Shown: piece by piece, positions 2,933-61,923 of the stretch
How positions within the stretch are numbered: the first letter of the stretch is position 1
Layout: each line of letters starts with the position of its first letter
NCBI GenBank assembly: GCA_963693365.1
Contig: CAVNZM010000003.1
Span: 13,173,252-13,237,251 of the forward strand
Length of the DNA stretch: 64,000 nt
Source of the DNA: Amoebidium appalachense
Taxonomy: Eukaryota > Protista > Ichthyosporea
Reading direction: 5' to 3'
Translations under genes and position numbers: made by a program
The notes under the pieces: model-generated
Told to the model about the DNA's origin: nothing
The model's input: only the letters and a program-made list of their open reading frames with translations
Databases searched by the model: none

Positions 2933-3724
2933 CACCGTATCACTGAGGTACTGCCACATGGCCTGTCTTGAAGATATAATTTGGATGGCCAATAGCGCTA
3001 CAAAAGAACTCTCCAAAGATCTCCTTAGATGATCCACTGCCTAGCTGTGATATATCCTGACGACATTCTAACGCAATCAGTTCGTTTCGCAAATGTTGCA
3101 TGGCCATACGGGATTAAGAGAGGATAAAGATTGTACTAAGATCTCCGCAGTACATCTTTAACATATCTCTACGCCCATCCCACGAGCGCCTTGTGTCAAC
3201 TTTCTTGCGTGTATAATGCATCTTACACACATCTATATAATATGTATCGGTATCTCTCATAGACATCCTGTAGAATGAGTGCAGACGTCTTTAGGACATC
3301 TGTTAACAACCCCATGTTCCGGGATGATAAAAATATGTCCTCAATCCGTCCAAGATATCTTTAAGACGTAAAAGACATGAAAACCCGAAAGACGTCTTTC
3401 ATATATCCCGTATGCATCCGCAACCCATCAGACAATTTAATGGGGGGTTAAGGACATCGGACTTGTGCTGATGGGTATAGTGCACTTCCAGGTGTCTGTA
3501 TACATCTTGTCAGACGACTTTACTACGTCTTGCAGATGTCCACTGTCTTGAATCCGTGCCAGACATATTTAATATATATGGGATGTGTTTCAGACGCCTT
3601 GCCATCCTGAAATTCCGGGTTATCCTAAACCCGTCCTAAGCTATCTTTTAGATATATTAACGACGATAGGACGTCCTAAAGTCGTACAAGACAGGTTTCG
3701 GATGGGGGGTGATCTTTGCTGATG

Positions 3725-4700
3725 TAGGTGGTGGCCGAGCTCAGCAGCAAGCGCAATGATGTAGCGTGTTGTGGCGGGGTTGGCGGTGGAGCAGAAGGTC
3801 TCGGTGTAGTCCAGACCCGGCCTCTGGGTGTATGCCATAGCCACTAGTAGGCGGGCCCGGAAGCGGATAACTGCGTTGTTGGCGTTGGTCTTGACGTCAT
3901 ACACCCATTGCACTTTGATTGGCTTGCAGCCTGGCGGGGGGTCTACTAGTGAGTAGGTGCCGTACTTGTCCAGCTTGGCTAGCTCTGCATGCATGGCCTC
4001 CTCCCACTGTGGTGCAAAAGATGACGCACGTGCCTTCGTCAGCGAATTTGGTATGGGCACGTCGGCTACATAGTAGATGGGCTCGGTTATGCCGGTGCCA
4101 TTACTGTTGCTGCCGCTGGTGGTGGTGCTGGCCAGAGCACTGGCTGCTGCCGTCATGGCTAGCACCTTGCTGTTGTCGCGCATGCGTCCACCACCCACGT
4201 GCTCACTAGAGTTGAACACACGGCCACTACGGGTCCTAGGTGGCTGGTGGTGGGTAGGCACAACCTCCCCCCCAATCCGCACGCGCCGATTGGTTGGTGC
4301 TGTCGCAGGGGAAGTAGCCCGTTGCTGTGCACTTGCAACTGGTGCAGTCTCCTCCTGTGTGGTTGCCTGGGTAGCCGGTGTGCACGGTGGTGTGTGTGGT
4401 GCAGCTTCGCCCGCTGTGGCAGAATCAACGGGTGGCTGGCGTACTGGTGCCTTGATCTGATTGGCTGCCGGAGTCAGCGAATCGTGCGACACGCTGGTGG
4501 GTGTAGTGGGGCTGAAGGGGATCGGGGTGCCCTTGTGCAGGGTCATACCCTCGTCGAACACCACACTCCTCCTCACCACGACCTTCCCAAAGCCCTTTTC
4601 GGTGGCCAGCAATATGCGGTATCCCTTCACCTGCACCCCACCGTCGCTGCCGTAGCCAATCAAAATGCCGCGTTCGGCGCGTGGGCTTCGTCCTCGAAGG
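3725..4700 (-). pseudogene. Ty1/Copia pol fragment (post-integrase SH3-like region and RT N-terminus)
   Basis: Motifs GILIGY...KGYR...RSVVFDE and WEEAMHAEL...GTYSLV...WVYDVK...RFRARL..AYTQRPGLDYTETF. Truncated at both ends. Confidence 0.85.
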
Positions 4701-4899
4701 AGTGAGTGATAGGGTGAGATATGTGTGAAAAAAAAACGACATATAGTCATAAGCATCAGCTTACGATCTGTGTTGTGAGGAATGGTTCCTAACGAACCAA
4801 TCACAGCCATGTGCTAAATTTTATCCGGGCAGATCCTGATCTTCCTGCACGTGGGGAAGAGGGTCTGTGTCGATCAATTAGACTCAAACTCAAATTAAT

Positions 4900-5644
4900 T
4901 TTCAATGACCTCAATTGTGTTTTATCCATCCACACAGGATTATCACGGCCAGCTTTAAGGCGGAAGATATTTTGTGTAGGTAGAGCACGCGTTTCGTAAA
5001 GAAAGGGGTGTTCTATCTCAATCTAGAATGGCCTCTATTTCGACTTCATCATCTGCAACAATGTTCCAACCATGTGACTGACCAGTCACAGGGAGGTCAT
5101 CATTTAGGCATAGCGCCACGTAATTCACATGAGAATACGAATATCATTTAAATCTTGCTTATTTCTGACCCTATAAGCTAATTCTCCCACTTGCTTGACC
5201 ACCTCAAATCCGTGGTGCCAACGAGGGGATAATTTACCTGGATGCTCAGAAGTATTTCTGATCATCACTGGGTCTCCTCTGAAAAATTTGCGAATTTTCG
5301 CAACTTGATCTGATTTGTGCGAATTATTCTTAGCATATCCAGGCGGCTTATTCATTTGCATATGCCGCACAATCTGAATTTGCCGTATCGCTTTTTCCCC
5401 TATAGCAGTCCACTCTGGTTGCTTCATGGGTTCCCCAGGAGGCAACAGAGAGACATCCGGAAAAAGTGTAGGATGTTGCCCGAATACGAGATAATATGGT
5501 GAATATCCAGTAGCCGCATGTTGAGTAACCCTATACCCAAACATAACGGGAGCTAGATATTCGTCCCAATCATCCCCATCCAAATTCACATACTTACTAA
5601 TGGCATCATTAATCGGTCTGTGAGACCTTTCGTTAATGGCATTA
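4900..5644 (-). pseudogene. Old Ty3/Gypsy integrase, C-terminal part (segment 3 of 3) with a degenerate chromodomain-like tail
   Basis: NAINER...WDEYLAPVMFGYRVTQHAATGYSPYYLVFG...GDPVMIR...KLSPRW; downstream EVEIEAILD is followed by stops. Confidence 0.8.
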
Positions 5645-6329
5645 TCTATGAAAACTACTCCGGGACGTGTGTTGCCTCTAGGGGGACATCCCCTTGGACG
5701 AAAGTGAACCTGCAATGGTTGTAAACCACGGCAAGCCCCCAGTCATCAATTTATTGATCCGTGAGGTCCATGTGCCCAAAAAACGGGGGAAGTCTTCGCC
5801 CCGTGAAAAAACAGCACGTATGTGTGGATCAATGGGGGTTGTGTGTGGGTGTAGGTGGGTGGGTGAAAAGGAATATATAGCTGTAAGGCTGTGGATGCTA
5901 AACACAGAAGATGTGTTTGTAGCTTGCTGATCTGCTAAAAACTGTCGTGCTTATATACCTAAGCCTACCGATCTGAGCCAATCAAAAATCGATCTAGTGA
6001 TATGTGAAATCTGATCCGAGCCAATCATAACTCGGTCTAGTGATCTGTGGTATCTGATGTTTTGACTGGCTAATAGGTGCCCGTGTGCGGGCAGCCAACC
6101 GCTAACTGCTAAAACACGAAATGAAGCCTACATGGTTATGTTGGTATCGAACACCCATCCTACGTGTTTACCCAGAAAAATATTTATGTCAATAATTTCC
6201 ACAAATAAAACCTCTATGAAAACTACTCCGGGACGTGTGTTGCCTCTAGGGGGACATCCCCTTGGACGAAAGTGAACCTGCAATGGTTGTAAACCACGGC
6301 ACGAGAGCAGTATGCTTGCTCCAAAGGTT

Positions 6330-7392
6330 TCACTTAAGAATAGAGGCGAATACACGTGTGGTGGTGGCAGCAATGGAGGCCGGACGAAGTCGAGTATAGA
6401 TCAGGAAGCAGTCGGAGGACCACCGGCCGAGTTGTTTGATCCGGGAGTCGTTGACCCCGGCCTCAGCCAGTGCTGTGGCCCCCCCGATGCGGAGGCTGTG
6501 TCCGGCAAACCGGGAGGGTGAGAGGCCTGCCCGGGAGAGGAGGGCACGGAAATCGGCAGAGAAAGCACTCTTGGTGTAGGGGATGCCACCGAGACTGAAG
6601 AGGGGGTCGTCGGGTTGACCGGACGTTGTATCCAGGAACTGCCGGAGGAGATGGGCTGGGGAGAAGTGGGTGAGGGGCAGGGCAGCTAGGGTGACGTTGA
6701 CACCTCGGGCCTGTACATCCGTCTTAGAGGTTGGCAGGTGGAGGGTGGCATGGGACAAAGTACCGGTGGGGGTGTAGCTGAAGGTCACGTCCTTCCGTTT
6801 AACGTGACGGGACGGGTCGAAAGAAGTCAGGGTCTTGGAGGTAAATTCCCCTGAACGGAGGAGACCACAGAAACCGACGATGAGGGCCGTCCATAGCCGG
6901 AGATTGGCCGAGGAGGCCTTGGTGGGGCACTGGCCATGGAGTAGGCTGAGGTGGGAGGGGAGGAGGGGTTCCCTGGTGGATGAGCGGGGTCGGATGTTGT
7001 GAGACAGCTGCCATCGGCCTACCCCCCGTAGGAACCAGGCCAGAGACTTGTCGTGGGGGTAGGGAGCAGGGAGGCCCATGTCGAGGTGGAGCCTGGTGAT
7101 GGCCGAATTGTAGCCGGTTAAGGAAGAGGCCTGTACCCCTCGTTGGGCACACCAGGCGAGAAAAAGTTGCACGGTGTGTGGGGAGGCCGGGAGGGAGGAC
7201 CCGGAGGAGGATTGCAGCCGAGATGCCACACAGAAATCGATGAACACTTTTTGCACCTGGGAGTAAAAGGCCCGAGAGTCGAGGTTGAGACTCAGGGCCT
7301 GGCATTCCTGCAGGGTAGTGGTGGCTCGAAGCAGCTCGGCCGGAGCAAAGTGGGGGGCCAATCTGCCAGTGTTGCTCCGGAACGGGAGATCT

Positions 7393-7427
<35 letters not shown>

Positions 7428-7540
7428 GCCCAAGGGAAGGGATAGGAACTCGTGGACCCAGGAGGGGAAGGGGCAGGGCTCCGGTTGCAGGGAAGGTCGG
7501 AGTCGTCGGGCCCGGGGAAGTTGGTTACGAGAAATGGCAT
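6330..7540 (-). CDS. Tyrosine recombinase (ORF3) of Ngaro copy 1; frame break in poly-G near 7400
   Basis: Catalytic signature LLRSGE...SKTD...GHSLRIGGAT...LGRWSSDCFLIY. Confidence 0.9.
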
Positions 7541-9121
7541 CGGCCAGATGGTTGAGGGGTCCTGGTAGGTAGGATGCCTGTAACGTAAATTGGTATTGCA
7601 TTTCCATGCGGGTGATGAACCGAATAAGTTTGGCCATCACGGGGTGGGGGCAAGACCGGGAGTGCAGGTCAGACACAGCACCCGTGTTGTCGCATAAAAT
7701 ACGGACATGGTGGGTGGACCAGGAGGGGGCCCAGAGGGCCACGGCGGCTGCGATGGCCAGGAGTTCGATGACGGAAGAACCGAGTTTACCCTCATGAGCA
7801 TAGAGGGCTTGGGTGGAGGGGGACCAGGGCATGAAGAACCATTGGTCGAGCCAGTGGCCACCTAGACCCACCGATCCGGCAGCGTCAGTGGCCAGGGTGG
7901 TATATGTGGGGGGTGTGATGAGGTGCACCCCATTCCATGATGTGAGGAACTGGTGCCATTCGGCTATGTCGGCCCGGGCGGCAGCAGTCAGCCGTATGTG
8001 GTGGTGGCCGGCAAGGTGTGGGTGGGTCCGGAGAAGGGCCCATAGGCGCTGGGAGAAGGCCCTCCCGGGGGGAACCAGCTGGGCACACCAGGTGAGTTTG
8101 CCGAGGAGGGACTGGAGGTCCCGAATGGTGATGGTGGGCTTTGGGTGGGAAGTGAGGTCGAGTAGGTCCGAGAGCTTGGAAGCCGGGATTCGTGCCTCCA
8201 TGGCGATGGAGTCGAATTCGATACCGATGAAGACGACACGGGTAGCCGGGCCCTGCATCTTGTCTTCGGAGATGGCAATGTGCAGCTCTCGGCAGAGTTG
8301 CAGGAAGGTGGATAGGTGACGTTGGCACTGCTGTTGTGTGGGGGCGACTATAATCCAGTCGTCTACGTAGTGGCGGATGAGGGTAATACCGTGCTGGTGT
8401 GCCAGCCACTGTAGGGTGGCCGCGATCCGTTCCCAGATGGCTGGGCTAGATTTCAGGCCGAAGGGCAGTCTGGTTTCAACGTAAAAATGCCCTTGCCATT
8501 TGAATGCCATTAAGTGGTGGTCTTCCGGTCGGATGGGCATGTGCCGGAAGGCTGCCTGCACATCTGCCACGGCCATGTAGCAGCCGGGGCCTGCGTCGAG
8601 AATGAGTTGGGTGACATCCCGGGCGCGAATGTACTGAAGTTCGTCGGGGTAGGTGATGCTGTCATTGACACTGCTACCCCGGGGCCAGGAGAGGTGGTGG
8701 ATTCGACGGTACTTGGGGGGGTTCCCTTTCTTGGTAACGGCGCCGATGGGGGAGGAACGGTGGACGGGAAATTCGTCAAAGAATTGGGCCGGGGAGAGGG
8801 GGCCGCGCAGGTGGCCGAGGGCGACTTCTTTGGCAATATCCACCGTGATAGCGGCAGCTGCCTCCGGGGTGGTGGGTAGGTTGGGGCCCACCCGAGAGGT
8901 GGAGGGGCCGCGATAGCCGATGTCGACGCCGAATTCGACATCGTGGAGGAGTTGTGCGGCGAATGGTTGGTCCGGGTAGGAGGCCAGCAGTTCCCGGAGG
9001 CGGGAGGTGTCAATGTGGTGCTGGGGCAGCGGGCGGGCCTCCGGGTCTGAGCCTCGGGGGAAGGGGGTGGTTAGCAAGGGTGGTGTACCCTTGGGGAGAT
9101 CCCGGCAGGGGGGGGGGGGGG

Positions 9122-9162
<41 letters not shown>

Positions 9163-9278
9163 CAGGGGCCCCGGGGGGTTAGAGTAGGGCAGCTGGGCCC
9201 AAGTGAGGGTTGGCAGGGAGGGCAGCGGGGCCCTGTGCGGGGGAATGTGCCCGAGCACGCGGGGGTGTGGGCGGACAC
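7425..9278 (-). CDS. Reverse transcriptase/RNase H (ORF2) of Ngaro copy 1
   Basis: KYRRIHHLSWP, ADVQAAFR, LPFGLKSSP, HYVDD, TDAAG, ELLAI, CDN, NHLADAISR. Confidence 0.92.
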
Positions 9279-9552
9279 AGCGGTAGAAGAAGGGGGGGGA
9301 GGGAGTGCTAGGTGAGTGTAAGGGGGGGGAGGCTCGTGGGATGGGGGGGGGGAGTAAAATTATGTGCAGTGGCCAGAATAAACGTCTTTGTATAGGGACA
9401 TTTATTCTTGACGCGCGCGGGCGCCGTAGTTGGCCTGCGAAATTTTGTACTCAGCCCTATTGGCCCGTTCTCCCGAGCTCCGTTTCCCTGTACTCGTGTG
9501 TCCTAGCTCCTAACCCCTATGTTCTAGCTGTGTGTGTGGGTGTGCGCGTAGA

Positions 9553-10730
9553 CTAGGCATTGTGCTTGCAGTCTTTGCGGGGGTGTGTGCCAGAGCAGAG
9601 CGGGCACACGTGGGAGAAGGGGCAGGGCTGCTTAGCGCAGGACCGACCGTTAATGTGGAAATTCCTGCAGTGCGTCGCGGGTAGATCCACGGGTCGGGCC
9701 GGTTTTGCCGGGCCGGGTTGCGGGCCAGGGCGGTTAGGGGTGTGACCCCCGCCGGGCTTGTGGGGCGGCTTAAAGCCGTCAAGACCACAGCCGGGCTTGG
9801 GGTACATGGGGCAGGCCGCGCTGGGGTGGTCGGGGAAGCCACAGCGCTGACATGCGTCCTGGATGAGCAGAGTGGGTGGCAGGAGGAGATCCTGGTGGAG
9901 TTGGGCGAGCAGGTTGGGGCACTCGATCGGAGCCCGACCCTGCTGGTGGGCCACGGTGCGGGCGTATACGTCATAGTTGTGGATCTGGGCCCACGGGTAT
10001 CGGGTGCTGAGGCGAGTGATGTGCTGAGTCCAAAGTACGTCTTTGTCCGTGGGAAGGCCGAGGTGGTGCTTGGCGGCCATGTAATGGGTCCAAGCTTGGA
10101 TCCAAATGACGAGTGAACGCAGGGGAACGGGTTTGTCTTGGCGAAAAGTCTCGATGCTGCCGTCGTCGGCCATGCGCAGATGCTGACCTTTCTTGGATGG
10201 GGCCAGGAGGGCGGCGGGGGTGAACTTATACAGGTCGACGAAACGATTGGCGCGCAAATCTGCCAGCACATCCGCGGGGGGAAGCGGGAGTGTGCCCGGC
10301 TGAATGTCGCCAGTGTTCTCACCTGTGATGGGGGGCGCGGGCAGGGCAGGCAGGTCAAGGTCAGGGCCGAGATGCAGCCCCGGGGAAACCTCCCCCGGGC
10401 CGGGTGTGGAGGGGGCGCGGCGGGGGGCGCGGGAGGGTCGCGGTTGGTGAGAGCAGCCAGGACGCCAGCCATCTGGGTGCTGATGGCGGTGAGGGCGGCC
10501 AGGACGGCGTCTTGAGAAGTCATCTGCGGGGACGGCGGGGCCTGAGGGGGGACTTCAGGAGTGGAGGGGAGAGTAGCCGGCGGGTCCGGGTCCGTGGTGG
10601 TATGGGCCGCTGGAGGCGCGTCAGTGTCCGCGGGAGCGTTGGTCAGCCTGTGGCGGAGGTCGCTGCGGGTCAGGCGCTTAGGTGCCGCGGCAGGGGCGGC
10701 GGCTGAGGCCTGGCGCTTTTTCGGCGGCAT
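9553..10730 (-). CDS. Gag-like ORF1 of Ngaro copy 1 (frameshift near 10400 relative to copy 2)
   Basis: Nearly identical to the intact ORF1 of copy 2. Contains CQRCGFPDHPSAAC knuckle and CRNFH...C...CPFSHVCPLCSGTH zinc fingers. Confidence 0.8.
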
Positions 10731-11109
10731 GCTGACCGGCGTAGGGAAAGATAGGGAGAATGAAAAGGAATATATAGCTGTAAGGCTGTGGATGCTAAAC
10801 ACAGAAGATGTGTTTGTAGCTTGCTGATCTGCTAAAAACTGTCGTGCTTATATACCTAAGCCTACCGATCTGAGCCAATCAAAAATCGATCTAGTGATAT
10901 GTGAAATCTGATCCGAGCCAATCATAACTCGGTCTAGTGATCTGTGGTATCTGATGTTTTGACTGGCTAATAGGTGCCCGTGTGCGGGCAGCCAACCGCT
11001 AACTGCTAAAACACGAAATGAAGCCTACATGGTTATGTTGGTATCGAACACCCATCCTACGTGTTTACCCAGAAAAATATTTATGTCAATAATTTCCACA
11101 AATAAAACC

Positions 11110-14680: not shown

Positions 14681-15338
14681 GTACAAGTGCGAGTGCGAGT
14701 GAGCCTATGCCTGCACACATTTTGTGTGTATGTGGGTGTGTGTGCATATGAGGTACATCGGAGCTAATGCGTTTGCGCATATGTGTACGTGTGGGGCCTT
14801 GATTTTTGGGTTGGTGTATATGTTTAAGGAATGAGTGCCGTGTCCGTTTCCACGGCAATGAATGCCGAGAGGGAGAGGGGGGGGGGAGGTATATGCGTTA
14901 GAGAGGGGAACTTGCCGAGGCAAAGGAATTCAGAATCATATACACAAAAAACATAAAGGCATAAACCAGTAAATAAAAATTGTTCAGGCAAGAGATACTT
15001 ATATAGAACCCATTGGGAGGATGGCAGTTGAAGCAGGTAAAAGCTTAAGAGCCACGTAGAATACTAACACGGTTCAAAGGCAGAGTATGCGAGATATACA
15101 AATAAAACATACACCTGACGAAGGGAGGGGGGAGGGGGGGTTATTTAGAACCCCAAAATGAAGACCAGTACGCAGAAGGGGAGGGGAGGGGTGAAGAGGG
15201 GGAGCTTAGGAAGAAGGCAGGAATGATTGCAATAGGCAGAAGAGTGGAAACGGGGTGGGTGTTGGAAGATGGTATCGTTATCCAGTCCGATCGCATGAAT
15301 CAGATCATGATCGGCTGGTGGCCTGCGAGATCTTAACC

Positions 15339-15411
15339 GATCTCGTAGCTCAGTTGGTAGAGCACTCGACCGGAGATAGAGGGGTCGCGGGTTCAAATCC
15401 CGTCGGGATCA
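15339..15411 (+). tRNA. tRNA-like gene in 5' LTR (anticodon loop CCGGAGA, nominal GGA, short variable loop; probably non-decoding)
   Basis: Cloverleaf: acceptor GATCTCG/CGGGATC, D stem GCTC/GAGC, T arm GCGGG-TTCAAAT-CCCGT. A and B boxes present, TTTTT 3 nt downstream. Confidence 0.75.
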
Positions 15412-15708
15412 TCTTTTTCTCATCCTCTTCTCGCTGGGGTAAAAGCCAGCACGCCTTTACTGGCGTCATCACAACCATCGGCAGTGGTTAGGTTGTGATC
15501 TCAAGGCTAGCAAGATCGCTAGTCTCTGCACCAGGACAAAATCCAAAATGGTAGCATGAACAGAGGTTCAGTGGGGACTGAGGGGGCAGTCCACCCTAAC
15601 CTGATTCTGCGATTCGTCCTGAGTGGGGATGTTGGAAGATGGTATCGTTATCCAGTCCGATCGCATGAATCAGATCATGATCGGCTGGTGGCCTGCGAGA
15701 TCTTAACC

Positions 15709-15781
15709 GATCTCGTAGCTCAGTTGGTAGAGCACTCGACCGGAGATAGAGGGGTCGCGGGTTCAAATCCCGTCGGGATCA
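15709..15781 (+). tRNA. Identical tRNA-like gene in 3' LTR
   Basis: Exact copy of 15339-15411, offset by 370 bp. Confidence 0.75.
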
Positions 15782-16157
15782 TCTTTTTCTCATCCTCTTC
15801 TCGCTGGGGTAAAAGCCAGCACGCCTTTACTGGCGTCATCACAACCATCGGCAGTGGTTAGGTTGTGATCTCAAGGCTAGCAAGATCGCTAGTCTCTGCA
15901 CCAGGACAAAATCCAAAAGTGGGTGGGTGGGTGGGGGGGGGGGGGGGGGGGGGGGGGAAACTAAAAATGTTTGCCGCGAACATCAGGACTGCAACAACTG
16001 GATGCCAGCAGTCATCAAAATCGATAACTGCTGAACGAGGGAGAAAGCGGGTGGTGGTAGCACAAGGGAGGGGGACAGACACAAAGCAATCAGCAGCCAG
16101 AAAGAAAAGAGAAAGTATGATGGCACTTCTGTTTGAAGACTAGGCCACCGGGGCCTT

Positions 16158-20650: not shown

Positions 20651-23566
20651 ATACATCGAGATTGGTCCCAGGTACAACGTACCCAGTCCTCAGGAAGTTG
20701 CGGACGTGCTGGTGGACATTGGACTTGATGGAGGTGATGCCCGTGCGGATTTTGGAGATATACTTCTGTGCGGGATCGCTACGCACACAGTTGCGGATGA
20801 TGTGGACCCACTTGGCCACGGCCTCCTGATTCAGCTTCGCGCTTGACGTCTCGACTTTCTGAAGAACCTCGACGAACTTTCCAGCCAGGTCCCCATCGTG
20901 GGCGTTGTTGATCTGGGGTGACTCCAGCACAAGGTGCTGGTAGATGTTGTGGGTCTTGGAGGACTTTTCCACATAGTCATTCTGACGGTGATGGAAAATG
21001 TTAGAAAACAAGAATGACGATGTGAATAAATCTTGATGGAGCTATAAATCCTCCATGCTGGAAACGTGCTGTAGCAGTTGCTTTGAAATGACCAAGTTTG
21101 AATAGTTCCTTCAGTTTATCCACTTAGACAGAATAAGGGTGTGGATGTAGTAGGGATGGGTTTAGTGCGGGTAGGGGGGGGATGAATGCATTAGGAGGTG
21201 GCAGCATGAGGTGGTGGGATGGCAACAATTCCTCCACAAGGATGAGCTTTGATCACAGAGATTGGTGGGGGGAGGGTTGTTTGAAACATAACTACTACAA
21301 TAGGTAAGAGAAACAAAATCAAAACGAAACCAAGGGAGGGATAGGTTGCCTACCAGGAACTGGGTGGTCTCCTGAAAGGATAATGTCTCGGGGCGTTTCT
21401 TGGAGGGGGAGGGGGTTGGGCGACGGGAAGGGGTGGTAGGGGTGCGGCCCAGCCCAGGCCCAGATGGAGACGGAGGCGGCTCTGGATCATCAAGCACTGG
21501 CAGTCTCGCCTCCTTGCCCAGGAGGGCGCGCAACTGCTCCCTCATGGCGGCGCGACTGTAGGAGCGGATGAGCTTTCGCATCCTCTGGGAGGTGTAGGTT
21601 GGGTGCTTGCCCGACAACACCAGTGTGTAAAAAAGGACCTCGAGCTGATCCTCGCGGTTGTAGGGGCATTCATCCTCGTCGTTGAAGTTGTTCTCGTCAT
21701 CTTCCTGGACTTCTGTGACTGAAGAATAGTAGGACTAATGTTAGTACAATTGTTGGAATCGTAGAAAACTAACAGAAGTGCGGAAACAGGGCAACCCTGG
21801 CAACAGATAGTATTTTCCGGCATGATCCAGATAACTATTGGAGGTCATCATATGACCCAAAACACCACCGAATCCCCCCCTTTCCCAACCATTTCTACAC
21901 CAAAAATGATCTATCGTATGGATATCCCCATCAACATATCGTGGGTGAAGGCAGAGGTTTCGAAAACACAAAAGAACTAGTTGACGTGGACAGGCGAGTG
22001 GGGGGAGCGAGTAAACCACACTAGCAGCAGGTGTGTTTAGAAAGAGTGGAGTGGGTGAAGGGAGAGTATATAAACGGAGGGGGAGGGGGGGGGGGGGGGG
22101 GGGGGGGTTGAATGCAGTCAACAGAACAAAAGTACAAATACAACGGGGAGTGTGGGTGGGTGAGTGCGGGGGGGGGGGGGGGGGGGGTTTGACCAATAGC
22201 AACGGGTATGTTTTCCTGTGTAACTGACTGGAATCCCGCTATCATGTTCTCCACACTAGGCAAGAAGTGTTCCCGACACTCGCACGTGGGATACAGCGCA
22301 AGCTGGTCGATCCAGAGAAAAGTTGCGGTGTTCACTGCTAGCGCAATGTTCGGGCCAACCTGAAAGCCATAGTGAAGCGCTCCAGGTGTGGTTTGTACCA
22401 AGTCGCCGGCGCGCTGTACGACTATGACAGGTGCCAACCCTATGGATGCAAGGTAACGCGGAGACCGAGGGATATAATTTTTGTGCTGAATTGGGTTTCT
22501 GCACGAGCCTGGCAATTCGTTGCGGGCCAGCTGTAAGAGCCGTTTGTACTGGGAGGGAGGGTGGATAAACCACACCTTAATGCCCCACAAAAGAAGGCTT
22601 GCTGAGGCCAGCGCGGCATCTTCAATGTGTGCACCAAACACTGTTAAACCCAAGACAGACAACTGCGCGTACAACATGGCAACATTGATTCCTGGCATTG
22701 TTTCCCCGAAATGATTTCTTCCCAACGGCGTGAAGTCACTGATTGCAGTTACATTGAAAACGCGTTCGTCGAATATTTGATCACCATCCACCTCGACATC
22801 GGATGCATAGACACCACCAACACCTTCGAGGTTTTCCTCAAACAACTGCGCTATCTGCTCACTGCTCATTTCACCCAAACCACTAACATCTTGAGGCAAC
22901 GTTTGACACTTGGAAAGGTCCACGCTGACAGGCTCCCGGCTTATCTCGCACCATGACTCGGACACGCGAGTTACTGTTTGCCTACACGCTTGCTCTTTTA
23001 TCTCTTTGGTCGAAAACTGTTCCATCGCATCACGAAAAGGAACAGGAGGTGCAAACCCCTCTAATAAACAACAGCCCTCCCGTTTCTCTTCAGCACTGTG
23101 CAGGGCACGAAGTGCCTTTAAAGCCTTTTCCCTATCCATGAAAGACGAAGCGCAATGTTGTTTTTATGTTTGAAGATTTTAAAAGTTTTTGATGTTACAG
23201 TGAGAAAGCCTAGGTGAAACTGACAACGAGCACACGCGTAACGACTATTTATGCAGCAGGGGGTGTAAAACACAAACACAACCCACCTTTCCTCTTCGGC
23301 TGCAGCATGGCGAGGGCGGCCGGGGCCGTAACTGAGGTGATGCCTTTGAGGAGAATGCCGACTGACTGCCCAGTAGGGCTTTCAGCCTTGCTGGGATTCT
23401 CCCTGCCCCTACCCCCGGCCTTGCTATCCTTGCCGCCCTTGCCGCCCTTGCCGCCCTTGCTGGCGGCCACGGGCTCGCTGCAGTCCGAGTCGTCGAACGG
23501 CGTCTCAACCTTTTTGCGCTTGGGAAGCTTGGTCGTTGTGGCGCCCATTTTCGCGGTCTTTGGCAT
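18193..23566 (-). CDS. Multi-exon cargo gene of unknown function (basic N-terminus, acidic C-terminus), possibly including the JmjC exon. Exons approx. 23566-23287, [23060-22194], 21718-21354, 20981-~20683, ~20191-20116, ~19985-19798, ~19197-19030, 18649-18193
   Basis: GC3-rich open segments bounded by GT/AG sites and separated by poly-C/microsatellite introns. Several junctions are phase-compatible; the middle junctions are not fully resolved. Confidence 0.6.
19283..19353. repeat. 71-bp near-perfect palindrome (35-bp arms, 3 mismatches)
   Basis: ATAATGTTGTCGTCATATGGTCTTACTGACATCCA-A-TGGATGTCATTAGGATCATATGACGACAACATTAT. Confidence 0.9.
20404..20529. repeat. Tandem duplication of ~63 bp within an intron
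   Basis: ACAGCTACATATCTCC...GTAGATTAGAACAAA occurs twice. Confidence 0.9.
22194..23139 (-). CDS. KDM4/JMJD2-like JmjC-domain (histone lysine demethylase-like) coding segment
   Basis: VYASDV, MPGINVAMLY, FGAHIED, GIKVW, CRNPIQHK, QRAGDLVQTTPGALHYGF, NIALAVN, WID..TCEC align by eye with KDM4 motifs (IYGAD, GVNTPYLY, FAWHTED, PKSW, C..FLRHK, QEAGEF..FP.GYHAGF, NCAESTN, WI..CxC). Confidence 0.85.
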
Positions 23567-24988
23567 GGTGGAGACGTGGAAGGCGTAAGCGCGAGACAGA
23601 GCGATGACGATATGTGGTCATATGGACCACAAAGATGTGTTATGTGGGGTTTCTGTTGCAGTTCCGGTTGGGAAATGGATTGCAATCCTATGCCCATGAA
23701 AAACTTTTAATTGGTTGATCATCGCATAAGCTGAAGCCAATCAAACGCGTAACCCAATCACAGACGGCGAAAACATATGATATGTTTTCCCCCCACACCT
23801 CCTGCAATTTGCTGAGGTTGGACCCTGGTCATCAAGACTTCTTGGCCATAAAATGACAATACAATTACAGCAAAACATTCTGCAGAAACCCGATATTCTC
23901 ACATTTTAAGTGTTTATAAAAAGCCTTAGTTTCAAGTAGAGGCATTTTTTTTCTTGCTTTGTGTCGACGACATCTTTTATCCGCTTGAAATTTGTCAGCA
24001 CCCATAATTCTACTATTACAGTACGTTGTATGTGGGGATCACCATCCGTCTTTCCTGTTTTAACTCGCGCTGAGGCAGAAGTTATAAGAAGCAGACGTGG
24101 AAAACTCAGCATAAGAGATCAATGAAATGAACATAAATATTAAATTACCAGACAATTTACAGTGCAAATTTTCTAGTAATTTCTAACGTCCATTACGAAA
24201 GAAAATAACCAACTTTTGACTTGCACCTGTTTTCCCTGCCGCGCTCAGGTATGTGGGTCTATCGGATGGGAAGGTGTGGACCTGACATTGAGCTTATCGA
24301 GTGGCCGCAGGGAGAATGAGCAATTAATATGATACTATTGGAATATTAATAGTTGAACTCTTCTGCATTTTTTATTGTTTTTTTGTATTTTTTACACTGT
24401 CCACATTTATTGACACTTATATAAGGACCGAACGATTAGGTAGGCTATGCCAGTGGATTCCCATGTTTACGAAGTGCGCGCGCTGCCTAGAGTGGCCACA
24501 TGTATGCATGACAGATCACCAATGATATTTGCAACGCACGCAAACCAAACAACATACAGGTCGTTGAAATCTCCACGGTTGTTCTAATAACACATTCAGC
24601 TTGTATATTTACTTTTAAGTTTGTTATTTTTTATGTCAATGAAATATGGGCATGCGCACCTAGTAGCATCAGTGTTGGACGAAGCAACGCAGCATGATAG
24701 AGTTTATGCCATAGCAGACCAATCGCCGCATTGGAACTATCCGAGTACGTGATAAATGTCCAATCACCACGATTAGGATTATTGGACATCTTCATGTTGT
24801 AGGAAACACCACCCGGGGGTCAACGCGGACTCCACGACATCAGGCAAGGGACATCATGATCAACACAACCCATCCACATCCCAGCTGGACGCACACGAGA
24901 GATCTATCTGTACTATAAAATATATATGTATATACACTGTTTTGATAAACTTTGTGTATGCACGTGATGTGCGGTAAAGCGCGTCAAA

Positions 24989-32359
<7,371 letters not shown>

Positions 32360-33393
32360 AGGTAGCAATGGGTGAGGCTATGCAAATTGTCGTACCCTTA
32401 AAAGATGCCTTTATGGGGACTTTTAGACTACATTTTCCTTTTTTCCCATCTCGATCACCCCCACATCCGAACCTTTTCGGATATCTTTATGAGATCTGTT
32501 TGACAATATGTTGATGTCTGAATCGAGTGCATAATTTTTGTTTTCGGCTTGGATTCACTTAATAATGCCAATCGTTGCCGCATCTATATGTATCTGTGGA
32601 CCCTGTAGTGGCCACATCAGCTAACAAATAACGGAAAGGGTTGTGGCCATTAGTATATCTAGTAACAATGCTGACAGTTACCGTAAGCCTGCCCGCCCAC
32701 ATGGGCCCGTATGGACAACTAAATGACGACTTAGTGGCGGGTTTATGATGTCTCGGACGATGGAATTTGTGCACGCGCACGTGCACCAAGTCTGTGACAC
32801 AAGGGTGTTGCTCCTCTGCCATATCTGATACGACTTCTTTCATGAATCATTCATTTATGCAACAATATTATTATCTGTTATAAATTATATCAAAATATAT
32901 CTTTACAACCAAGGTTGTTGGTAATTATCTACACTAGCCATATGGGTGGAATGGCTGGCTCCCTTCATTTGCACGCCTCTGTCTGGCAACCTTTAAATGA
33001 ATAATATAGGCGTGTTTTATCAAAGTATTACTTTTATAAATCTTATAATTTTCAGCTGTTAATTCCTGAGCCAGTTCTACCACATTAAAGCGTGATCAAA
33101 ATCAATTTTGCGGTCTCCCGGCAAGGATGGTGGTCTGCTTTGCACGCCTCCAGAAAAATTATGTGATCCAATCACATGACGCGAAATCCTATCTCTCAAA
33201 TCCGTGAATATTCATTGGCTTTCATTCCACGCCGCGCACCGCCCGGAGCGGCGCGCGGCGCGCGGAGTCGATCACACTGTGGAAACCATATCATCAGTCA
33301 GTCAGTCAGTAGGTTTGCATATGCTCACGGCCACACATGCACAGTAGCTTTTTGCTGCCTGGCATACTGCTATCCACCAATGATTGAACAAAA

Positions 33394-34632: not shown

Positions 34633-35085
34633 GGGACTGCAACCCAACCTTTAGGTATTATTGACATCAAATATATAGTTACTACGAAAAGATACAACTT
34701 ATCGTAGGTTTTATTTGTGGAAATTATTGACATAAATATTTTTCTGGGTAAACACGTAGGATGGGTGTTCGATACCAACATAACCATGTAGGCTTCATTT
34801 CGTGTTTTAGCAGTTAGCGGTTGGCTGCCCGCACACGGGCACCTATTAGCCAGTCAAAACATCAGATACCACAGATCACTAGACCGAGTTATGATTGGCT
34901 CGGATCAGATTTCACATATCACTAGATCGATTTTTGATTGGCTCAGATCGGTAGGCTTAGGTATATAAGCACGACAGTTTTTAGCAGATCAGCAAGCTAC
35001 AAACACATCTTCTGTGTTTAGCATCCACAGCCTTACAGCTATATATTCCTTTTCATTCTCCCTATCTTTCCCTACGCCGGTCAGC

Positions 35086-36255
35086 ATGCCGCCGAAAAAG
35101 CGCCAGGCCTCAGCCGCCGCCCCTGCCGCGGCACCTAAGCGCCTGACCCGCAGCGACCTCCGCCACAGGCTGACCAACGCTCCCGCGGACACTGACGCGC
35201 CTCCAGCGGCCCATACCACCACGGACCCGGACCCGCCGGCTACTCTCCCCTCCACCCCTGAAGTCCCCCCTCAGGCCCCGCCGTCCCCGCAGATGACTTC
35301 TCAAGACGCCGTCCTGGCCGCCCTCACCGCCATCAGCACCCAGATGGCTGGCGTCCTGGCTGCTCTCACCAACCGCGACCCTCCCGCGCCCCCCGCCGCG
35401 CCCTCCACACCCGGGGAGGTTTCCCCGGGGCTGCATCTCGGCCCTGACCTAGACCTACCTGCCCTGCCCGCGCCCCCCATCACAGGTGAGAACACTGGCG
35501 ACATTCAGCCGGGCACACTCCCGCTTCCCCCCGCGGATGTGCTGGCAGATTTGCGCGCCAATCGTTTCGTCGACCTGTATAAGTTCACCCCCGCCGCCCT
35601 CCTGGCCCCATCCAAGAAAGGTCAGCATCTGCGCATGGCCGACGACGGCAGCATCGAGACTTTTCGCCAAGACAAACCCGTTCCCCTGCGTTCACTCGTC
35701 ATTTGGATCCAAGCTTGGACCCATTACATGGCCGCCAAGCACCACCTCGGCCTCCCCACGGACAAAGACGTACTTTGGACTCAGCACATCACTCGCCTCA
35801 GCACCCGATACCCGTGGGCCCAGATCCACAACTATGACGTATACGCCCGCACCGTTGCCCACCAGCAGGGTCGGGCTCCGATCGAGTGCCCCAACCTGCT
35901 CGCCCAACTCCACCAGGATCTCCTCCTGCCACCCACTCTGCTCATCCAGGACGCATGTCAGCGCTGTGGCTTCCCCGACCACCCCAGCGCGGCCTGCCCC
36001 ATGTACCCCAAGCCCGGCTGTGGTCTTGACGGCTTTAAGCCGCCCCACAAGCCCGGCGGGGGTCAAACCCCTAACCGCCCTGGCCCGCAACCCGGCCCGG
36101 CAAAACCGGCCCGACCCGTGGATCTACCCGCGACGCACTGCAGGAATTTCCACATTAACGGTCGGTCCTGCGCTAAGCAGCCCTGCCCCTTCTCCCACGT
36201 GTGCCCGCTCTGCTCTGGCACACACCCCCGCAAAGACTGCAAGCACAATGCCTAG
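35086..36255 (+). CDS. Gag-like ORF1 of Ngaro copy 2
   Basis: Uninterrupted from MPPKKRQ; CCHC and CCCH-like zinc fingers. Confidence 0.85.
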   Translation: MPPKKRQASAAAPAAAPKRLTRSDLRHRLTNAPADTDAPPAAHTTTDPDPPATLPSTPEVPPQAPPSPQMTSQDAVLAALTAISTQMAGVLAALTNRDPPAPPAAPSTPGEVSPGLHLGPDLDLPALPAPPITGENTGDIQPGTLPLPPADVLADLRANRFVDLYKFTPAALLAPSKKGQHLRMADDGSIETFRQDKPVPLRSLVIWIQAWTHYMAAKHHLGLPTDKDVLWTQHITRLSTRYPWAQIHNYDVYARTVAHQQGRAPIECPNLLAQLHQDLLLPPTLLIQDACQRCGFPDHPSAACPMYPKPGCGLDGFKPPHKPGGGQTPNRPGPQPGPAKPARPVDLPATHCRNFHINGRSCAKQPCPFSHVCPLCSGTHPRKDCKHNA

Positions 36256-36537
36256 TCTACGCGCACACCCACACACACAGCTAGAACATAGGGGTTAGGA
36301 GCTAGGACACACGAGTACAGGGAAACGGAGCTCGGGAGAACGGGCCAATAGGGCTGAGTACAAAATTTCGCAGGCCAACTACGGCGCCCGCGCGCGTCAA
36401 GAATAAATGTCCCTACACAAAGACGTTTATTCTGGCCACTGCACATAATTTTACTCCCCCCCCCCCATCCCACGAGCCTCCCCCCCCCCCCTTACACTCA
36501 CCTAGCACTCCCTCCCCCCCCCCCTTCTTCTACCGCT

Positions 36538-36652
36538 GTGTCCGCCCACACCCCCGCGTGCTCGGGCACATTCCCCTGCACAGGGCCCCGCTGCCCTCCC
36601 TGCCAACCCTCACTTGGGCCCAGCTGCCCTACTCTAACCCCCCGGGGCCCTG

Positions 36653-36686
<34 letters not shown>

Positions 36687-38370
36687 CTGCCGGGATCTCC
36701 CCAAGGGTACACCACCCTTGCTAACCACCCCCTTCCCCCGAGGCTCAGACCCGGAGGCCCGCCCGCTGCCCCAGCACCACATTGACACCTCCCGCCTCCG
36801 GGAACTGCTGGCCTCCTACCCGGACCAACCATTCGCCGCACAACTCCTCCACGATGTCGAATTCGGCGTCGACATCGGCTATCGCGGCCCCTCCACCTCT
36901 CGGGTGGGCCCCAACCTACCCACCACCCCGGAGGCAGCTGCCGCTATCACGGTGGATATTGCCAAAGAAGTCGCCCTCGGCCACCTGCGCGGCCCCCTCT
37001 CCCCGGCCCAATTCTTTGACGAATTTCCCGTCCACCGTTCCTCCCCCATCGGCGCCGTTACCAAGAAAGGGAACCCCCCCAAGTACCGTCGAATCCACCA
37101 CCTCTCCTGGCCCCGGGGTAGCAGTGTCAATGACAGCATCACCTACCCCGACGAACTTCAGTACATTCGCGCCCGGGATGTCACCCAACTCATTCTCGAC
37201 GCAGGCCCCGGCTGCTACATGGCCGTGGCAGATGTGCAGGCTGCCTTCCGGCACATGCCCATCCGACCGGAAGACCACCACTTAATGGCATTCAAATGGC
37301 AAGGGCATTTTTACGTTGAAACCAGACTGCCCTTCGGCCTGAAATCTAGCCCAGCCATCTGGGAACGGATCGCGGCCACCCTACAGTGGCTGGCACACCA
37401 GCACGGTATTACCCTCATCCGCCACTACGTAGACGACTGGATTATAGTCGCCCCCACACAAGAGCAGTGCCAACGTCACCTATCCACCTTCCTGCAACTC
37501 TGCCGAGAGCTGCACATTGCCATCTCCGAAGACAAGATGCAGGGCCCGGCTACCCGTGTCGTCTTCATCGGTATCGAATTCGACTCCATCGCCATGGAGG
37601 CACGAATCCCGGCTTCCAAGCTCTCGGACCTACTCGACCTCACTTCCCACCCAAAGCCCACCATCACCATTCGGGACCTCCAGTCCCTCCTCGGCAAACT
37701 CACCTGGTGTGCCCAGCTGGTTCCCCCCGGGAGGGCCTTCTCCCAGCGCCTATGGGCCCTTCTCCGGACCCACCCACACCTTGCCGGCCACCACCACATA
37801 CGACTGACTGCTGCCGCCCGGGCCGACATAGCCGAATGGCACCAGTTCCTCACATCATGGAATGGGGTGCACCTCATCACACCCCCCACATACACCACCC
37901 TGGCCACTGATGCTGCCGGATCGGTGGGTCTAGGTGGCCACTGGCTCGACCAATGGTTCTTCATGCCCTGGTCCCCCTCCACCCAAGCCCTCTATGCTCA
38001 TGAGGGTAAACTCGGTTCTTCCGTCATCGAACTCCTGGCCATCGCAGCCGCCGTGGCCCTCTGGGCCCCCTCCTGGTCCACCCACCATGTCCGTATTTTA
38101 TGCGACAACACGGGTGCTGTGTCTGACCTGCACTCCCGGTCTTCCCCCCACCCCGTGATGGCCAAACTTATTCGGTTCATCACCCGCATGGAAATGCAAT
38201 ACCAATTTACGTTACAGGCATCCTACCTACCAGGACCCCTCAACCATCTGGCCGATGCCATTTCTCGTAACCAACTTCCCCGGGCCCGACGACTCCGACC
38301 TTCCCTGCAACCGGAGCCCTGCCCCTTCCCCTCCTGGGTCCACGAGTTCCTATCCCTTCCCTTGGGCTAA
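36538..38370 (+). CDS. RT/RNase H ORF2 of Ngaro copy 2 (start uncertain)
   Basis: YVDD catalytic motif; TDAAG/CDN/ADAISR RNase H motifs. Confidence 0.92.
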
Positions 38371-39454
38371 CCCCCCCCCCCCCCCCCCCCCAGATCTCCC
38401 GTTCCGGAGCAACACTGGCAGATTGGCCCCCCACTTTGCTCCGGCCGAGCTGCTTCGAGCCACCACTACCCTGCAGGAATGCCAGGCCCTGAGTCTCAAC
38501 CTCGACTCTCGGGCCTTTTACTCCCGGGTGCAAAAAGTGTTCATCGATTTCTGTGTGGCATCTCGGCTGCAATCCTCCTCCGGGTCCTCCCTCCCGGCCT
38601 CCCCACACACCGTGCAACTTTTTCTCGCCTGGTGTGCCCAACGAGGGGTACAGGCCTCTTCCTTAACCGGCTACAATTCGGCCATCACCAGGCTCCACCT
38701 CGACATGGGCCTCCCTGCTCCCTACCCCCACGACAAGTCTCTGGCCTGGTTCCTACGGGGGGTGGGCCGATGGCAGCTTTCTCACAACATCCGACCCCGC
38801 TCATCCACCAGGGAACCCCTCCTCCCCTCCCACCTCCGCCTACTCCATGGCCAGTGCCCCACCAAGGCCTCCTCGGCCAATCTCCGGCTATGGACGGCCC
38901 TCATCGTCGGTTTCTGTGGTCTCCTCCGTTCAGGGGAATTTACCTCCAAGACCCTGACTTCTTTCGACCCGTCCCGTCACGTTAAACGGAAGGACGTGAC
39001 CTTCAGCTACACCCCCACCGGTACTTTGTCCCATGCCACCCTCCACCTGCCAACCTCTAAGACGGATGTACAGGCCCGAGGTGTCAACGTCACCCTAGCT
39101 GCCCTGCCCCTCACCCACTTCTCCCCAGCCCATCTCCTCCGGCAGTTCCTGGATACAACGTCCGGTCAACCCGACGACCCCCTCTTCAGTCTCGGTGGCA
39201 TCCCCTACACCAAGAGTGCTTTCTCTGCCGATTTCCGTGCCCTCCTCTCCCGGGCAGGCCTCTCACCCTCCCGGTTTGCCGGACACAGCCTCCGCATCGG
39301 GGGGGCCACAGCACTGGCTGAGGCCGGGGTCGACGACTCCCGGATCAAACAACTCGGCAGGTGGTCCTCCGACTGCTTCCTGATCTATACCCGACTTCGT
39401 CCGGCCTCCATTGCTGCCACCACCACACGTGTATTCGCCTCTATTCTTAAGTGA
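38255..39454 (+). CDS. Tyrosine recombinase ORF3 of Ngaro copy 2, overlapping the end of ORF2
   Basis: R-K-HxxR-W-Y signature present. Confidence 0.92.
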   Translation: MPFLVTNFPGPDDSDLPCNRSPAPSPPGSTSSYPFPWANPPPPPPPDLPFRSNTGRLAPHFAPAELLRATTTLQECQALSLNLDSRAFYSRVQKVFIDFCVASRLQSSSGSSLPASPHTVQLFLAWCAQRGVQASSLTGYNSAITRLHLDMGLPAPYPHDKSLAWFLRGVGRWQLSHNIRPRSSTREPLLPSHLRLLHGQCPTKASSANLRLWTALIVGFCGLLRSGEFTSKTLTSFDPSRHVKRKDVTFSYTPTGTLSHATLHLPTSKTDVQARGVNVTLAALPLTHFSPAHLLRQFLDTTSGQPDDPLFSLGGIPYTKSAFSADFRALLSRAGLSPSRFAGHSLRIGGATALAEAGVDDSRIKQLGRWSSDCFLIYTRLRPASIAATTTRVFASILK

Positions 39455-46318: not shown

Positions 46319-46349
<31 letters not shown>

Positions 46350-48236: not shown

Positions 48237-48971
48237 ATTCCCCCCACCCCAATTAAAAAACCACACCCAGTTAAAAGATATACTATCCGCTCGCATCGCC
48301 ATCTCGATCGACGGGGGGTGGCCCGGATCCACAGATCATCAAGATCAAGTCCGAGGCCTCAAGATAGCTGTACAGCTCGTGCATCTTCTCCGGCGAGGGA
48401 GGACGTCAGCCGGGGCAGCGAAAAGATAAGGAAAGTAGGAGGATAATTGGGAGAAGTGTATGGGTTGATAGTATATGTTGCAAAGTATTTATAATTGATG
48501 TAGAGGAAAGGGGGAGGGAAGGGGGGGGAGGAAGTATAAGTAATGAGGTGTAGGGGAGGGGAGGGGTGAGAAAGATAATAAAGTTGAGTGGGAGAGATTG
48601 GATGCATCGTAGGGGGCAGGTGATGATGATTTTGAGGGCACGGCCTTGATGGCCTCAGTTGTGACTTAGCCTCATTCCGTACGGATCTAAGTTTTGCCCG
48701 TCGGAGCCTGGTCTGAATAAACTTTACCGTTTTTCCGTACACGTTCGTTCCTTTTCTTGTGTGTACACTTAGTAGAGTGCCGCGTCTCTAGTACACACAC
48801 AATAGGATACGACAAGCTACACCTTTCTTTTAGTGCGGTTTTTCGCGCTAGGATAACGCGGTGACAGTTCCTTCTGGGCTGTTGCTACACCTCAAACACA
48901 CAGAAAAAAAAAAAAAAAAAAAAAAAAAAAAACATAAACACAACCACACGGGTTCGGGCACACACCACACA

Positions 48972-51905: not shown

Positions 51906-52051
51906 GAATGTGCAGGCAGGGGGGGAGGGTGTTGGTCTAACCCGTGGATCTGACGGGTTAACCAACACCGTGGGGGGCAGGGTGGCCACAGACCTCAGGC
52001 TGGCCCCCCACATACATACACTAACTCATCAGGAATTGCCCGGGGGCATGG

Positions 52052-53745: not shown

Positions 53746-53750
53746 ATGCT

Positions 53751-61828: not shown

Positions 61829-61835
<7 letters not shown>

Positions 61836-61920
<85 letters not shown>
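61836..61920. repeat. (TG)n microsatellite
   Basis: Directly visible. Confidence 0.95.

Positions 61921-61923
<3 letters not shown>

What the first reader, a model, noticed from the sequence alone, without database searches (positions are those of the whole stretch)
15260..15918. 659-bp TRIM whose LTRs each contain a tRNA-like Pol III gene
Seen: apparently identical 289-bp LTRs, an 81-bp core with PBS and PPT, a GTGGG TSD, and a full cloverleaf with A/B boxes in each LTR. Known: Cassandra TRIMs carry 5S rRNA sequence in their LTRs, and tRNA-bearing TRIMs have, to my recollection, been reported as Helenus. Inference: a recently inserted, Pol III-driven SINE/LTR hybrid, possibly a new family or host range. 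The LTRs end in AA rather than the canonical CA.
Basis: partly seen in the sequence, partly recalled or inferred. Interest (0 to 1): 0.78.

Follow-up and report, generated by a model that had tools for sequence, protein, structure and literature searches.

The report
tRNA-bearing mini LTR retrotransposon (Helenus type)
This is a young, multi-copy, gene-less jumping element with a tRNA-shaped sequence in each end repeat, of a kind described in 2024 (Helenus), likely in a single-celled relative of animals not yet listed as a host; its tRNA loop holds a short palindrome, as do most fungal members, which may help two RNA copies pair.

Summary
In detail: two identical 289-bp LTRs, an 81-bp core with PBS and PPT, a 5-bp TSD and a full cloverleaf in each LTR. 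Public runs show a multi-copy family: foreign flanks join at both LTR ends, LTR:core depth is about 2:1, and the unit matches the window almost exactly. A plain tandem duplication is rejected. It is a Helenus-type TRIM (Kojima 2024) with the fungal, Copia-type anatomy, and matches none of the published consensus sequences. The AA end is family-wide but has a published precedent. Strong CGC/GCG depletion plus Plavaka and JmjC-only genes suggest an Amoebidium-like ichthyosporean host, a lineage not in Kojima's list. Pol III transcription and the Copia partner are inferred, not shown. One point looks new: the anticodon loop opens with CCGG, and 104 of 116 published fungal Helenus LTRs (by eye) have a 4-base palindrome there, of seven kinds, against 25 of 117 animal ones. 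This suggests a kissing-loop role; my fold prediction does not show the loop exposed. The scan has noted Helenus-type elements before on other DNA (120 notes, at least 22 genomes), none on this sequence.

The parts
15255..15259 (+). left copy of the 5-bp target-site duplication (GTGGG)
15260..15548 (+). 5' LTR, 289 bp, TG...AA, 7-bp terminal inverted repeat with one mismatch
   Evidence: foreign flanks join at 15258-15260 and 15546-15550
15260..15338 (+). inferred U3 (upstream of tRNA +1), with a predicted hairpin at 15282-15318
   Evidence: inference from the Pol III model; fold
15339..15411 (+). tRNA-like domain, copy 1; inferred start of the RNA and R region; A box 15346-15357, B box 15390-15400
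15370..15373 (+). CCGG palindrome at tRNA positions 32-35 (C33 in place of U33); candidate RNA-RNA pairing site
   Evidence: comparison with Kojima Data S1 by eye
15414..15418 (+). T5 run, Pol III terminator-like; would have to be read through in the 5' LTR; a T4 variant occurs in run X8
15434..15523 (+). inferred U5 with four predicted hairpins
15549..15556 (+). primer-binding site TGGTAGCA, abutting the LTR; same start as the fungal Helenus sites assigned to the 3' end of initiator tRNA-Met
   Evidence: host tRNA not available
15549..15629 (+). 81-bp non-coding core with a predicted hairpin at about 15566-15597
15621..15629 (+). polypurine tract GAGTGGGGA abutting the 3' LTR
15630..15918 (+). 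3' LTR, identical to the 5' LTR
15709..15781 (+). tRNA-like domain, copy 2 (CCGG at 15740-15743)
15784..15788 (+). T5 run in the 3' LTR; inferred end of a 450-nt full-length RNA
   Evidence: inference
15919..15923 (+). right copy of the TSD (GTGGG)

Best explanation
This is a young, multi-copy, non-coding LTR retrotransposon (a Helenus-type TRIM) that is likely transcribed by RNA polymerase III from the tRNA-like box in its 5' LTR and is likely copied and inserted by the proteins of an unidentified Copia element. Shown: the anatomy, many insertions with exact LTR ends, near-identical copies. Inferred steps: (1) Pol III starts at about 15339, sometimes reads through the first T5 and stops at the second, giving a 450-nt RNA whose repeated end (R) is the tRNA domain; (2) the RNA is packaged in Copia particles and primed at TGGTAGCA by host initiator tRNA-Met; (3) with no spacer at PBS or PPT the cDNA is blunt-ended, as in Ty1, and an integrase that tolerates a U5 end in AA inserts it with a 5-bp TSD; (4) the tRNA domain works as a promoter and not in translation. 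The most speculative step: the loop palindrome pairs two R copies (RNA dimer, or 5'-3' bridging).
For: Anatomy. Multi-copy: 20 of 24 listed runs hold it, in 4 organism labels and 5 studies. Depth over the element far exceeds the flank in 4 of 4 laid runs that cover both: X1 core about 4,250-8,300 vs 169, X3 700 vs 16, X12 core 354-805 vs 67, X2 core 1,253 vs 99 (the tool warns that depth is no copy number). Foreign flanks: 5 contigs at the left end (15258-15260) and 9 at the right end (15546-15550), one poly-G contig left out. One left flank (X15) ends in ATCAC and one right flank (X1) starts with ATCAC, a candidate second TSD. LTR:core depth 2,646:1,253 in X2 suggests few solo LTRs. Two runs guessed to be RNA hold the whole unit, including the stretch past the T5 and the core-to-LTR joint, and no flank piece. 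Kojima: fungal Helenus has 5-bp TSDs and Copia-type PBS; many of its consensus LTRs have a T-run behind the tRNA part and several cores start tggtagc. Ty1 cDNA is blunt and needs no 3' processing. The RNA folds better than shuffles (z -4.8 and -4.6).
Against: No transcription start, end or strand could be seen: all runs were contigs and the RNA label is a guess. No autonomous partner found: the window's Copia remnant (3641-4813) shares no sequence with the element. Ty1 integrase used an AA end only at millimolar manganese, not at physiological ion levels, so the partner enzyme must be laxer than Ty1's. The host initiator tRNA is not available, so the PBS match is 8 bases by analogy. Identical LTRs could partly reflect short-read polishing of the assembly: X1 shares this insertion junction yet differs from the window's left flank at 5 bases and 2 indels. 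A T5 straight after the tRNA should stop much Pol III transcription before the PBS, and an intact cloverleaf could be cut out by tRNA-processing enzymes (established knowledge, not tested).
Confidence: 0.85

Rival explanations
1. Same TRIM, but transcribed by Pol II (from U3 or by read-in from flanks). The tRNA domain would be kept as a structural or packaging signal, or be a passenger.
For: The T5 directly behind the tRNA would stop Pol III before the PBS. Kojima states that Pol III function is not validated for Helenus. The LTR is rich in hairpins.
Against: A and B boxes are intact and are the conserved part across Helenus. The two RNA-guess runs show no flank pieces (weak). Cassandra, the validated analogue, also carries Pol III terminators in both LTRs and yields transcripts that read through LTRs.
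Confidence: 0.12
2. A local tandem duplication of a tRNA gene or SINE region, with a chance GTGGG match.
For: The flanks are G-rich (GTGGG at 0.9% of positions) and the window holds no second copy.
Against: Repeat ends coincide with TG, PBS and PPT; 14 contigs with other flanks join at the LTR ends and depth is many times that of the flank.
Confidence: 0.01
3. The element amplifies a working tRNA-Ser(GGA) gene, or primes itself with its own tRNA.
For: ARAGORN calls tRNA-Ser(GGA); 20 of 21 pairs are standard.
Against: C33 replaces the near-invariant U33, G30-A40 is mismatched, and there is no long variable arm as serine tRNAs have (tRNA rules from established knowledge). Its last 16 bases match the Apis tRNA-Trp 3' end printed in Kojima Fig. 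S2 at 14 of 16 (by eye), which disagrees with the anticodon. No stretch of 6 or more bases of the first 18 of the core has a complement in the element.
Confidence: 0.03

Closest known systems
Fungal Helenus TRIMs (TRIMp3), Kojima 2024, PMC10886601; I read main-text parts 1-5 of 6 and all 11 parts of the supplement; figures not seen
   Same: Under 1 kb, two LTRs each with a tRNA-like domain with A and B boxes, PBS and PPT, no coding, 5-bp TSD, TGTT start, PBS abutting the LTR and starting tggtagc in several families, T-run behind the tRNA part, anticodon and body disagree, non-CA U5 ends (TA, GA, AA in Helenus-1_PCor), palindrome in the anticodon loop (CCGG also in Helenus-1_CroRib).
   Different: No published family has 289/81-bp parts or this sequence (and reading by eye). 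The host is likely an ichthyosporean, not a basidiomycete. U5 is long (130 nt behind the T-run) and made of hairpins, where most fungal families have a short U5.
Animal Helenus (same paper)
   Same: tRNA-like LTR domain; some bivalve and wasp families have similar D- and T-arm sequence.
   Different: 4-bp TSD, Gypsy-type PBS, often a 1-3-base spacer, CA ends; loop palindrome in 25 of 117 by my count.
Cassandra TRIM (5S-bearing); seen through passages of PMC7215508 and Kojima's account; the 2008 paper was not held
   Same: Pol III gene-derived promoter and terminator in each LTR; read-through of LTRs reported.
   Different: 5S rRNA-derived, plants only; its transcription is validated, this element's is not.
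Ty1 (Copia superfamily); passages of PMC8487063, PMC2939329, PMC6844567 and the abstract of PMC5454406
   Same: Blunt cDNA ends, 5-bp TSD, initiator-tRNA priming; palindromes and kissing loops at the RNA 5' end serve dimerisation.
   Different: Autonomous and Pol II-transcribed; needs CA at physiological ion levels; its palindromes are 6-7 bases and not in a tRNA mimic.

Membership tests
TRIM | Two LTRs, under 1000 bp in all | tested here: met
   659 bp, 289-bp LTRs
TRIM | No protein coding for mobilisation | tested here: met
   Longest ATG frame is about 100 aa across the tRNA, with no room for gag or pol; not searched against Pfam
TRIM | PBS and PPT at the ends of the core | tested here: met
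   TGGTAGCA and GAGTGGGGA abut the LTRs; pairing with the host tRNA not tested
TRIM | Dispersed copies with TSDs | tested here: met
   One full TSD in the window; 14 contigs with other flanks at LTR ends and one candidate second TSD from two runs
Helenus | tRNA-like sequence with boxes A and B in the LTRs | tested here: met
   Kojima defines Helenus by this feature
Helenus | tRNA part unlikely to be a working tRNA (isotype disagreement) | tested here: inconclusive
   C33, G30-A40, short variable arm and a Trp-like 3' end against a Ser anticodon; tRNAscan-SE not available
Helenus | Sequence identity with a named Helenus family | tested here: not met
   4 of 6 motifs absent from the supplement and 2 hit unrelated families; no match by eye in Data S1. 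Repbase and Dfam were not searched. Helenus is defined by structure, so this makes it a new family, not a non-member
Helenus, fungal/plant (Copia-mobilised) type | 5-bp TSD and Copia-type PBS | tested here: met
Helenus, fungal/plant (Copia-mobilised) type | An autonomous Copia partner with the same PBS or core sequence | tested here: inconclusive
   None in the window; no genome held
TRIMp3 | Transcription by RNA polymerase III from the LTR | not testable with these tools
   Only contigs were served; no starts, ends or strand
Cassandra / Ajax | 5S rRNA-derived sequence in the LTR | tested here: not met
   Rfam finds only tRNA

The most novel reading that the evidence does not exclude
Copia-type Helenus elements have turned the anticodon loop of a captured tRNA into a self-complementary kissing loop. 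Because the tRNA domain is the R region and sits at both RNA ends, one palindrome could both dimerise the RNA for packaging and bridge its ends for strand transfer. This would explain the lost U33, the mismatched isotypes and the odd swollen tRNA classes in rust genomes. The element here would be the first case in a unicellular holozoan, with CCGG reached independently of the fungal CTAG and CATG forms.
Probability: 0.25. Interest if true: 0.7.

Novelty: new member of a known kind. Interest (0 to 1): 0.48.

Why it matters
Helenus was described in 2024 from sequence alone: its Pol III promoter and its packaging signals are untested. This family is young and homogeneous, appears in RNA-guess assemblies, and likely sits in a protist lineage with members that grow in pure culture, so it could serve for the first direct tests. 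It would extend Helenus to a lineage between fungi and animals, with the fungal Copia-type anatomy. The loop-palindrome pattern, if it survives a proper computation, gives a testable answer to how such elements get packaged without sharing LTR sequence with their helper, which Kojima names as unknown. In practice these copies will also inflate tRNA-Ser(GGA) counts in annotation.

Tried and rejected
No whole genome was held, so no genome-wide copy or partner search. Metagenome scan with the first 18 LTR bases: 35 of 35 hits are chance matches of 18-23 bases, and none has a tRNA like this one. Viral contigs: 0 hits. No RNA holder is listed on record; X11 and X14 are guesses. Empty-site evidence: in X12 a contig runs from 15262 into poly-G instead of the LTR, but poly-G tails can be a sequencing artefact and the right flank was not reached, so I do not count it. 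Protein searches for a host name gave one unnamed weak hit each for the JmjC frame and the Copia frame. C-to-T rates between the tyrosine-recombinase element copies showed no CGC/GCG excess (6 of 177, 9 of 291 other CG, 48 of 1783 non-CG); this test did not support the host reading. Self-priming was rejected. A link between the LTR's GATC sites and retrotransposon-borne adenine methylases found no support: the preprint 10.64898/2026.05.21.726589 (parts 1-2 of 5 and passages read) never mentions GATC. Fold predictions leave C32-C33 mostly paired elsewhere (unpaired 0.02 in the tRNA alone, 0.01 and 0.52 in the two copies of the full RNA, 0.7 in a 5' fragment). The 2008 Cassandra paper was not held.

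Full report
1. The observation. The two repeats, 15260-15548 and 15630-15918, are identical over 289 of 289 bases and enclose an 81-base core. The core starts TGGTAGCA with no spacer and ends GAGTGGGGA directly before the 3' LTR. GTGGG flanks both sides; only a 5-base duplication fits among lengths 3-9, and this word makes up 0.9% of local flank positions. Each LTR holds a 73-nt tRNA at 15339 and 15709 (ARAGORN; Rfam 57.4 bits). 20 of 21 cloverleaf pairs are standard and the A and B boxes are intact. A T5 run follows each tRNA and is the only run of 4 or more T on that strand. The ends form a 7-base inverted repeat with one mismatch, which is the AA.

2. It is a dispersed, young family. No genome was held and the window has one copy, so I used sequencing runs. 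20 of 24 listed runs hold the stretch, under 4 organism labels and 5 studies; some may be the window's own source. I laid 8 of the 20 holders. In the 4 runs that cover both flank and element, core depth is about 5 to 45 times flank depth; the tool warns that this is no copy number, so I read it only as 'some ten to a few dozen copies'. Five contigs carry other flanks at the left end (15258-15260) and nine at the right end (15546-15550); I left out one poly-G contig at 15252. Seven of the nine right-end contigs leave at exactly 15548, so the AA end is a family trait. A left flank in X15 ends in ATCAC and a right flank in X1 starts with ATCAC, which could be a second insertion with its own TSD; it is one match among about a dozen pairings and comes from two runs. 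LTR and core depth stand at 2,646 to 1,253 in X2, as expected if solo LTRs are few. The main contigs differ from the window at 0 or 1 base. Caveat: X1 shares this insertion but differs in the left flank at 5 bases and 2 indels, so the flank may be a repeat, or polishing may have evened out the window's LTRs.

3. Expression. X11 and X14, guessed to be RNA and from one sample, hold the whole unit, past the T5 and across the core-LTR joint, with no flank pieces. This fits a transcript that stays within the element, but contigs show no start, end or strand. In X8 about 9% of depth has T4 instead of T5. X2 and X8 share a contig that joins at exactly tRNA +1 with a foreign upstream flank: likely the host's parent tRNA gene or a related SINE (not resolved).

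4. Host. In the Gypsy pol frame only 8 of 135 CG sites lie in CGC/GCG context, against 42% expected (p about 1e-21); CGC is at 0.09 of expectation while the other CG contexts are at 0.67-1.13. The tyrosine-recombinase frames show the same (0.06 and 0.31). It is not uniform: the JmjC frame, one unknown frame and a second Gypsy piece show none, the Copia piece little, and a substitution test between element copies showed no excess. The window also has a Plavaka transposase piece and a JmjC-only frame. PMC11244446 (section 6 and passages read) reports CGC/GCG-biased methylation, Plavaka giant repeats with tyrosine recombinases and JmjC-only genes in the ichthyosporean Amoebidium. It was the only paper with both Plavaka and JmjC, and 1 of 2 with mCGC and GmCG (the other is on rice motifs, listing only). 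I put an Amoebidium-like host at about 80%. No marker gene confirms it. Kojima's Table S1 lists basidiomycetes, six animal phyla and Selaginella only.

5. How it most likely works. Inferred: Pol III starts at the tRNA, reads through the first T5 part of the time and stops at the second, giving a 450-nt RNA with the tRNA as R, a 79-base U3 and a 130-base U5. This RNA folds well above chance (z -4.8; LTR z -4.6; the cloverleaf contributes). Cassandra has the same terminator problem and yields read-through transcripts (PMC7215508, passages). The PBS start equals that of several fungal Helenus cores, a group for which Kojima names the 3' end of initiator tRNA-Met among the primers and Copia as the helper. 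No spacer at PBS or PPT implies a blunt cDNA, as in Ty1 (PMC8487063, passages). Against an easy AA story: Ty1 integrase used AA ends only at millimolar manganese, and changing CA to AC abolished use in vivo (PMC2939329, passages). For it: fungal Helenus consensus LTRs end in TA and GA as well as CA, and Helenus-1_PCor ends in AA, so the last A is kept and the C is not. The helper was not found; the window's Copia remnant shares nothing with the element.

6. The tRNA is probably not a working one. It has C33, a G30-A40 mismatch and a short variable arm under a serine anticodon. Its last 16 bases match the Apis tRNA-Trp end in Kojima's Fig. S2 at 14 of 16, the best of the ends printed there by eye. 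The PBS has no complement of 6 or more bases in the element.

7. The loop palindrome. Positions 32-35 read CCGG. I read all of Kojima's Data S1 and scored by eye whether a strict 4-base palindrome starts at loop position 32 or 33, counted from the end of the D arm. Fungal LTRs: 25 of 26, 24 of 26, 29 of 31, 23 of 30 and 3 of 3, in all 104 of 116, of seven kinds: CTAG, CATG, GTAC, ACGT, ATAT, CCGG, TGCA. Animal LTRs: 6 of 31, 9 of 31, 8 of 25, 1 of 19 and 1 of 11, in all 25 of 117, mostly CTAG; a few registers were unclear and scored as misses. The Selaginella LTR misses my rule but has a 6-base palindrome at 33-38. Chance is 6.2% per register, about 12% for two. Weaknesses: the count is by eye and the rule was set after seeing the data; the families are related, so independent changes are perhaps five to seven; CTAG is simply inherited from any tRNA with an AGN anticodon; this element's CCGG has a 6-12% chance by itself; and the fold model leaves C32-C33 mostly paired elsewhere (it does not model the tRNA's tertiary fold). 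Palindromes and kissing loops do serve Ty1 RNA dimerisation (PMC6844567, passages; PMC5454406, abstract). Kojima's main text has no 'palindrom', 'dimer' or 'kissing'. A five-term search found one unrelated review (listing only); a TRIMp3 search found only Kojima's paper on the subject; of three papers with Helenus, LTR retrotransposon and tRNA, one cites it in passing and one I did not open. Subscription journals are mostly not held, so absence from print is not proven.

8. Verdict. A real, young, new family of a known kind (Helenus, Copia type), likely in a new host lineage. The scan has noted the kind before on other DNA (120 notes, at least 22 genomes), but nothing on this sequence, this genome, an ichthyosporean host or the loop palindrome. 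Interest 0.48; the kissing-loop reading is 25% likely and would deserve 0.7.

Noticed in passing
window 15260-15548; also about 5750-6050, 25900-26320, 39700-40000, 55800-56100, 62350-62700: GATC occurs 8 times in the LTR (2.5 expected; 1 of 5000 shuffles; top of 256 4-mers) and also clusters near the ends of the tyrosine-recombinase and Gypsy elements and before the Plavaka piece. Hairpin stems double some counts. Unexplained; might relate to adenine methylation at promoters.
   Followed up: partly
window 52025-55630, 6330-9359, 60001-64000: Very strong loss of CGC/GCG in some retroelement frames but not in neighbouring frames; a usable lineage marker.
   Followed up: partly
run X2, contig leaving the core at window 15586: A low-depth variant keeps U5, PBS and 38 core bases and then runs into another A-box-like sequence: perhaps a longer subfamily with a second tRNA-like unit, or a SINE insertion.
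   Followed up: no
runs X2 and X8, contig joining at window 15339: The same foreign upstream flank joins at tRNA +1 in two organism labels; candidate parent tRNA gene or SINE.
   Followed up: no
window 5645-11109, 34707-40141, 44342-48239, 62259-64000: Four copies of a tyrosine-recombinase (DIRS/Ngaro-like) retroelement with split direct repeats of 349 and 89 bases; two full copies are 98.7% identical and one is decayed and rearranged.
   Followed up: no
window 48313-56530: A Gypsy element with diverged LTR-like ends (74% alike), pol in several frames, and by eye a chromodomain-like tail that Pfam did not report.
   Followed up: no
window 21000-33000: JmjC-only frame (22021-23163) and Plavaka transposase pieces (from 26278), like the giant repeats described for Amoebidium.
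   Followed up: partly
window 3641-4813 (-): A Copia pol remnant without LTRs, next to Gypsy pieces; shows that Copia exists in this genome.
   Followed up: partly
window 29516-31408, 56923-58177, 59365-61611: Three tandem arrays with periods of about 375, 400 and 183 bases.
   Followed up: no
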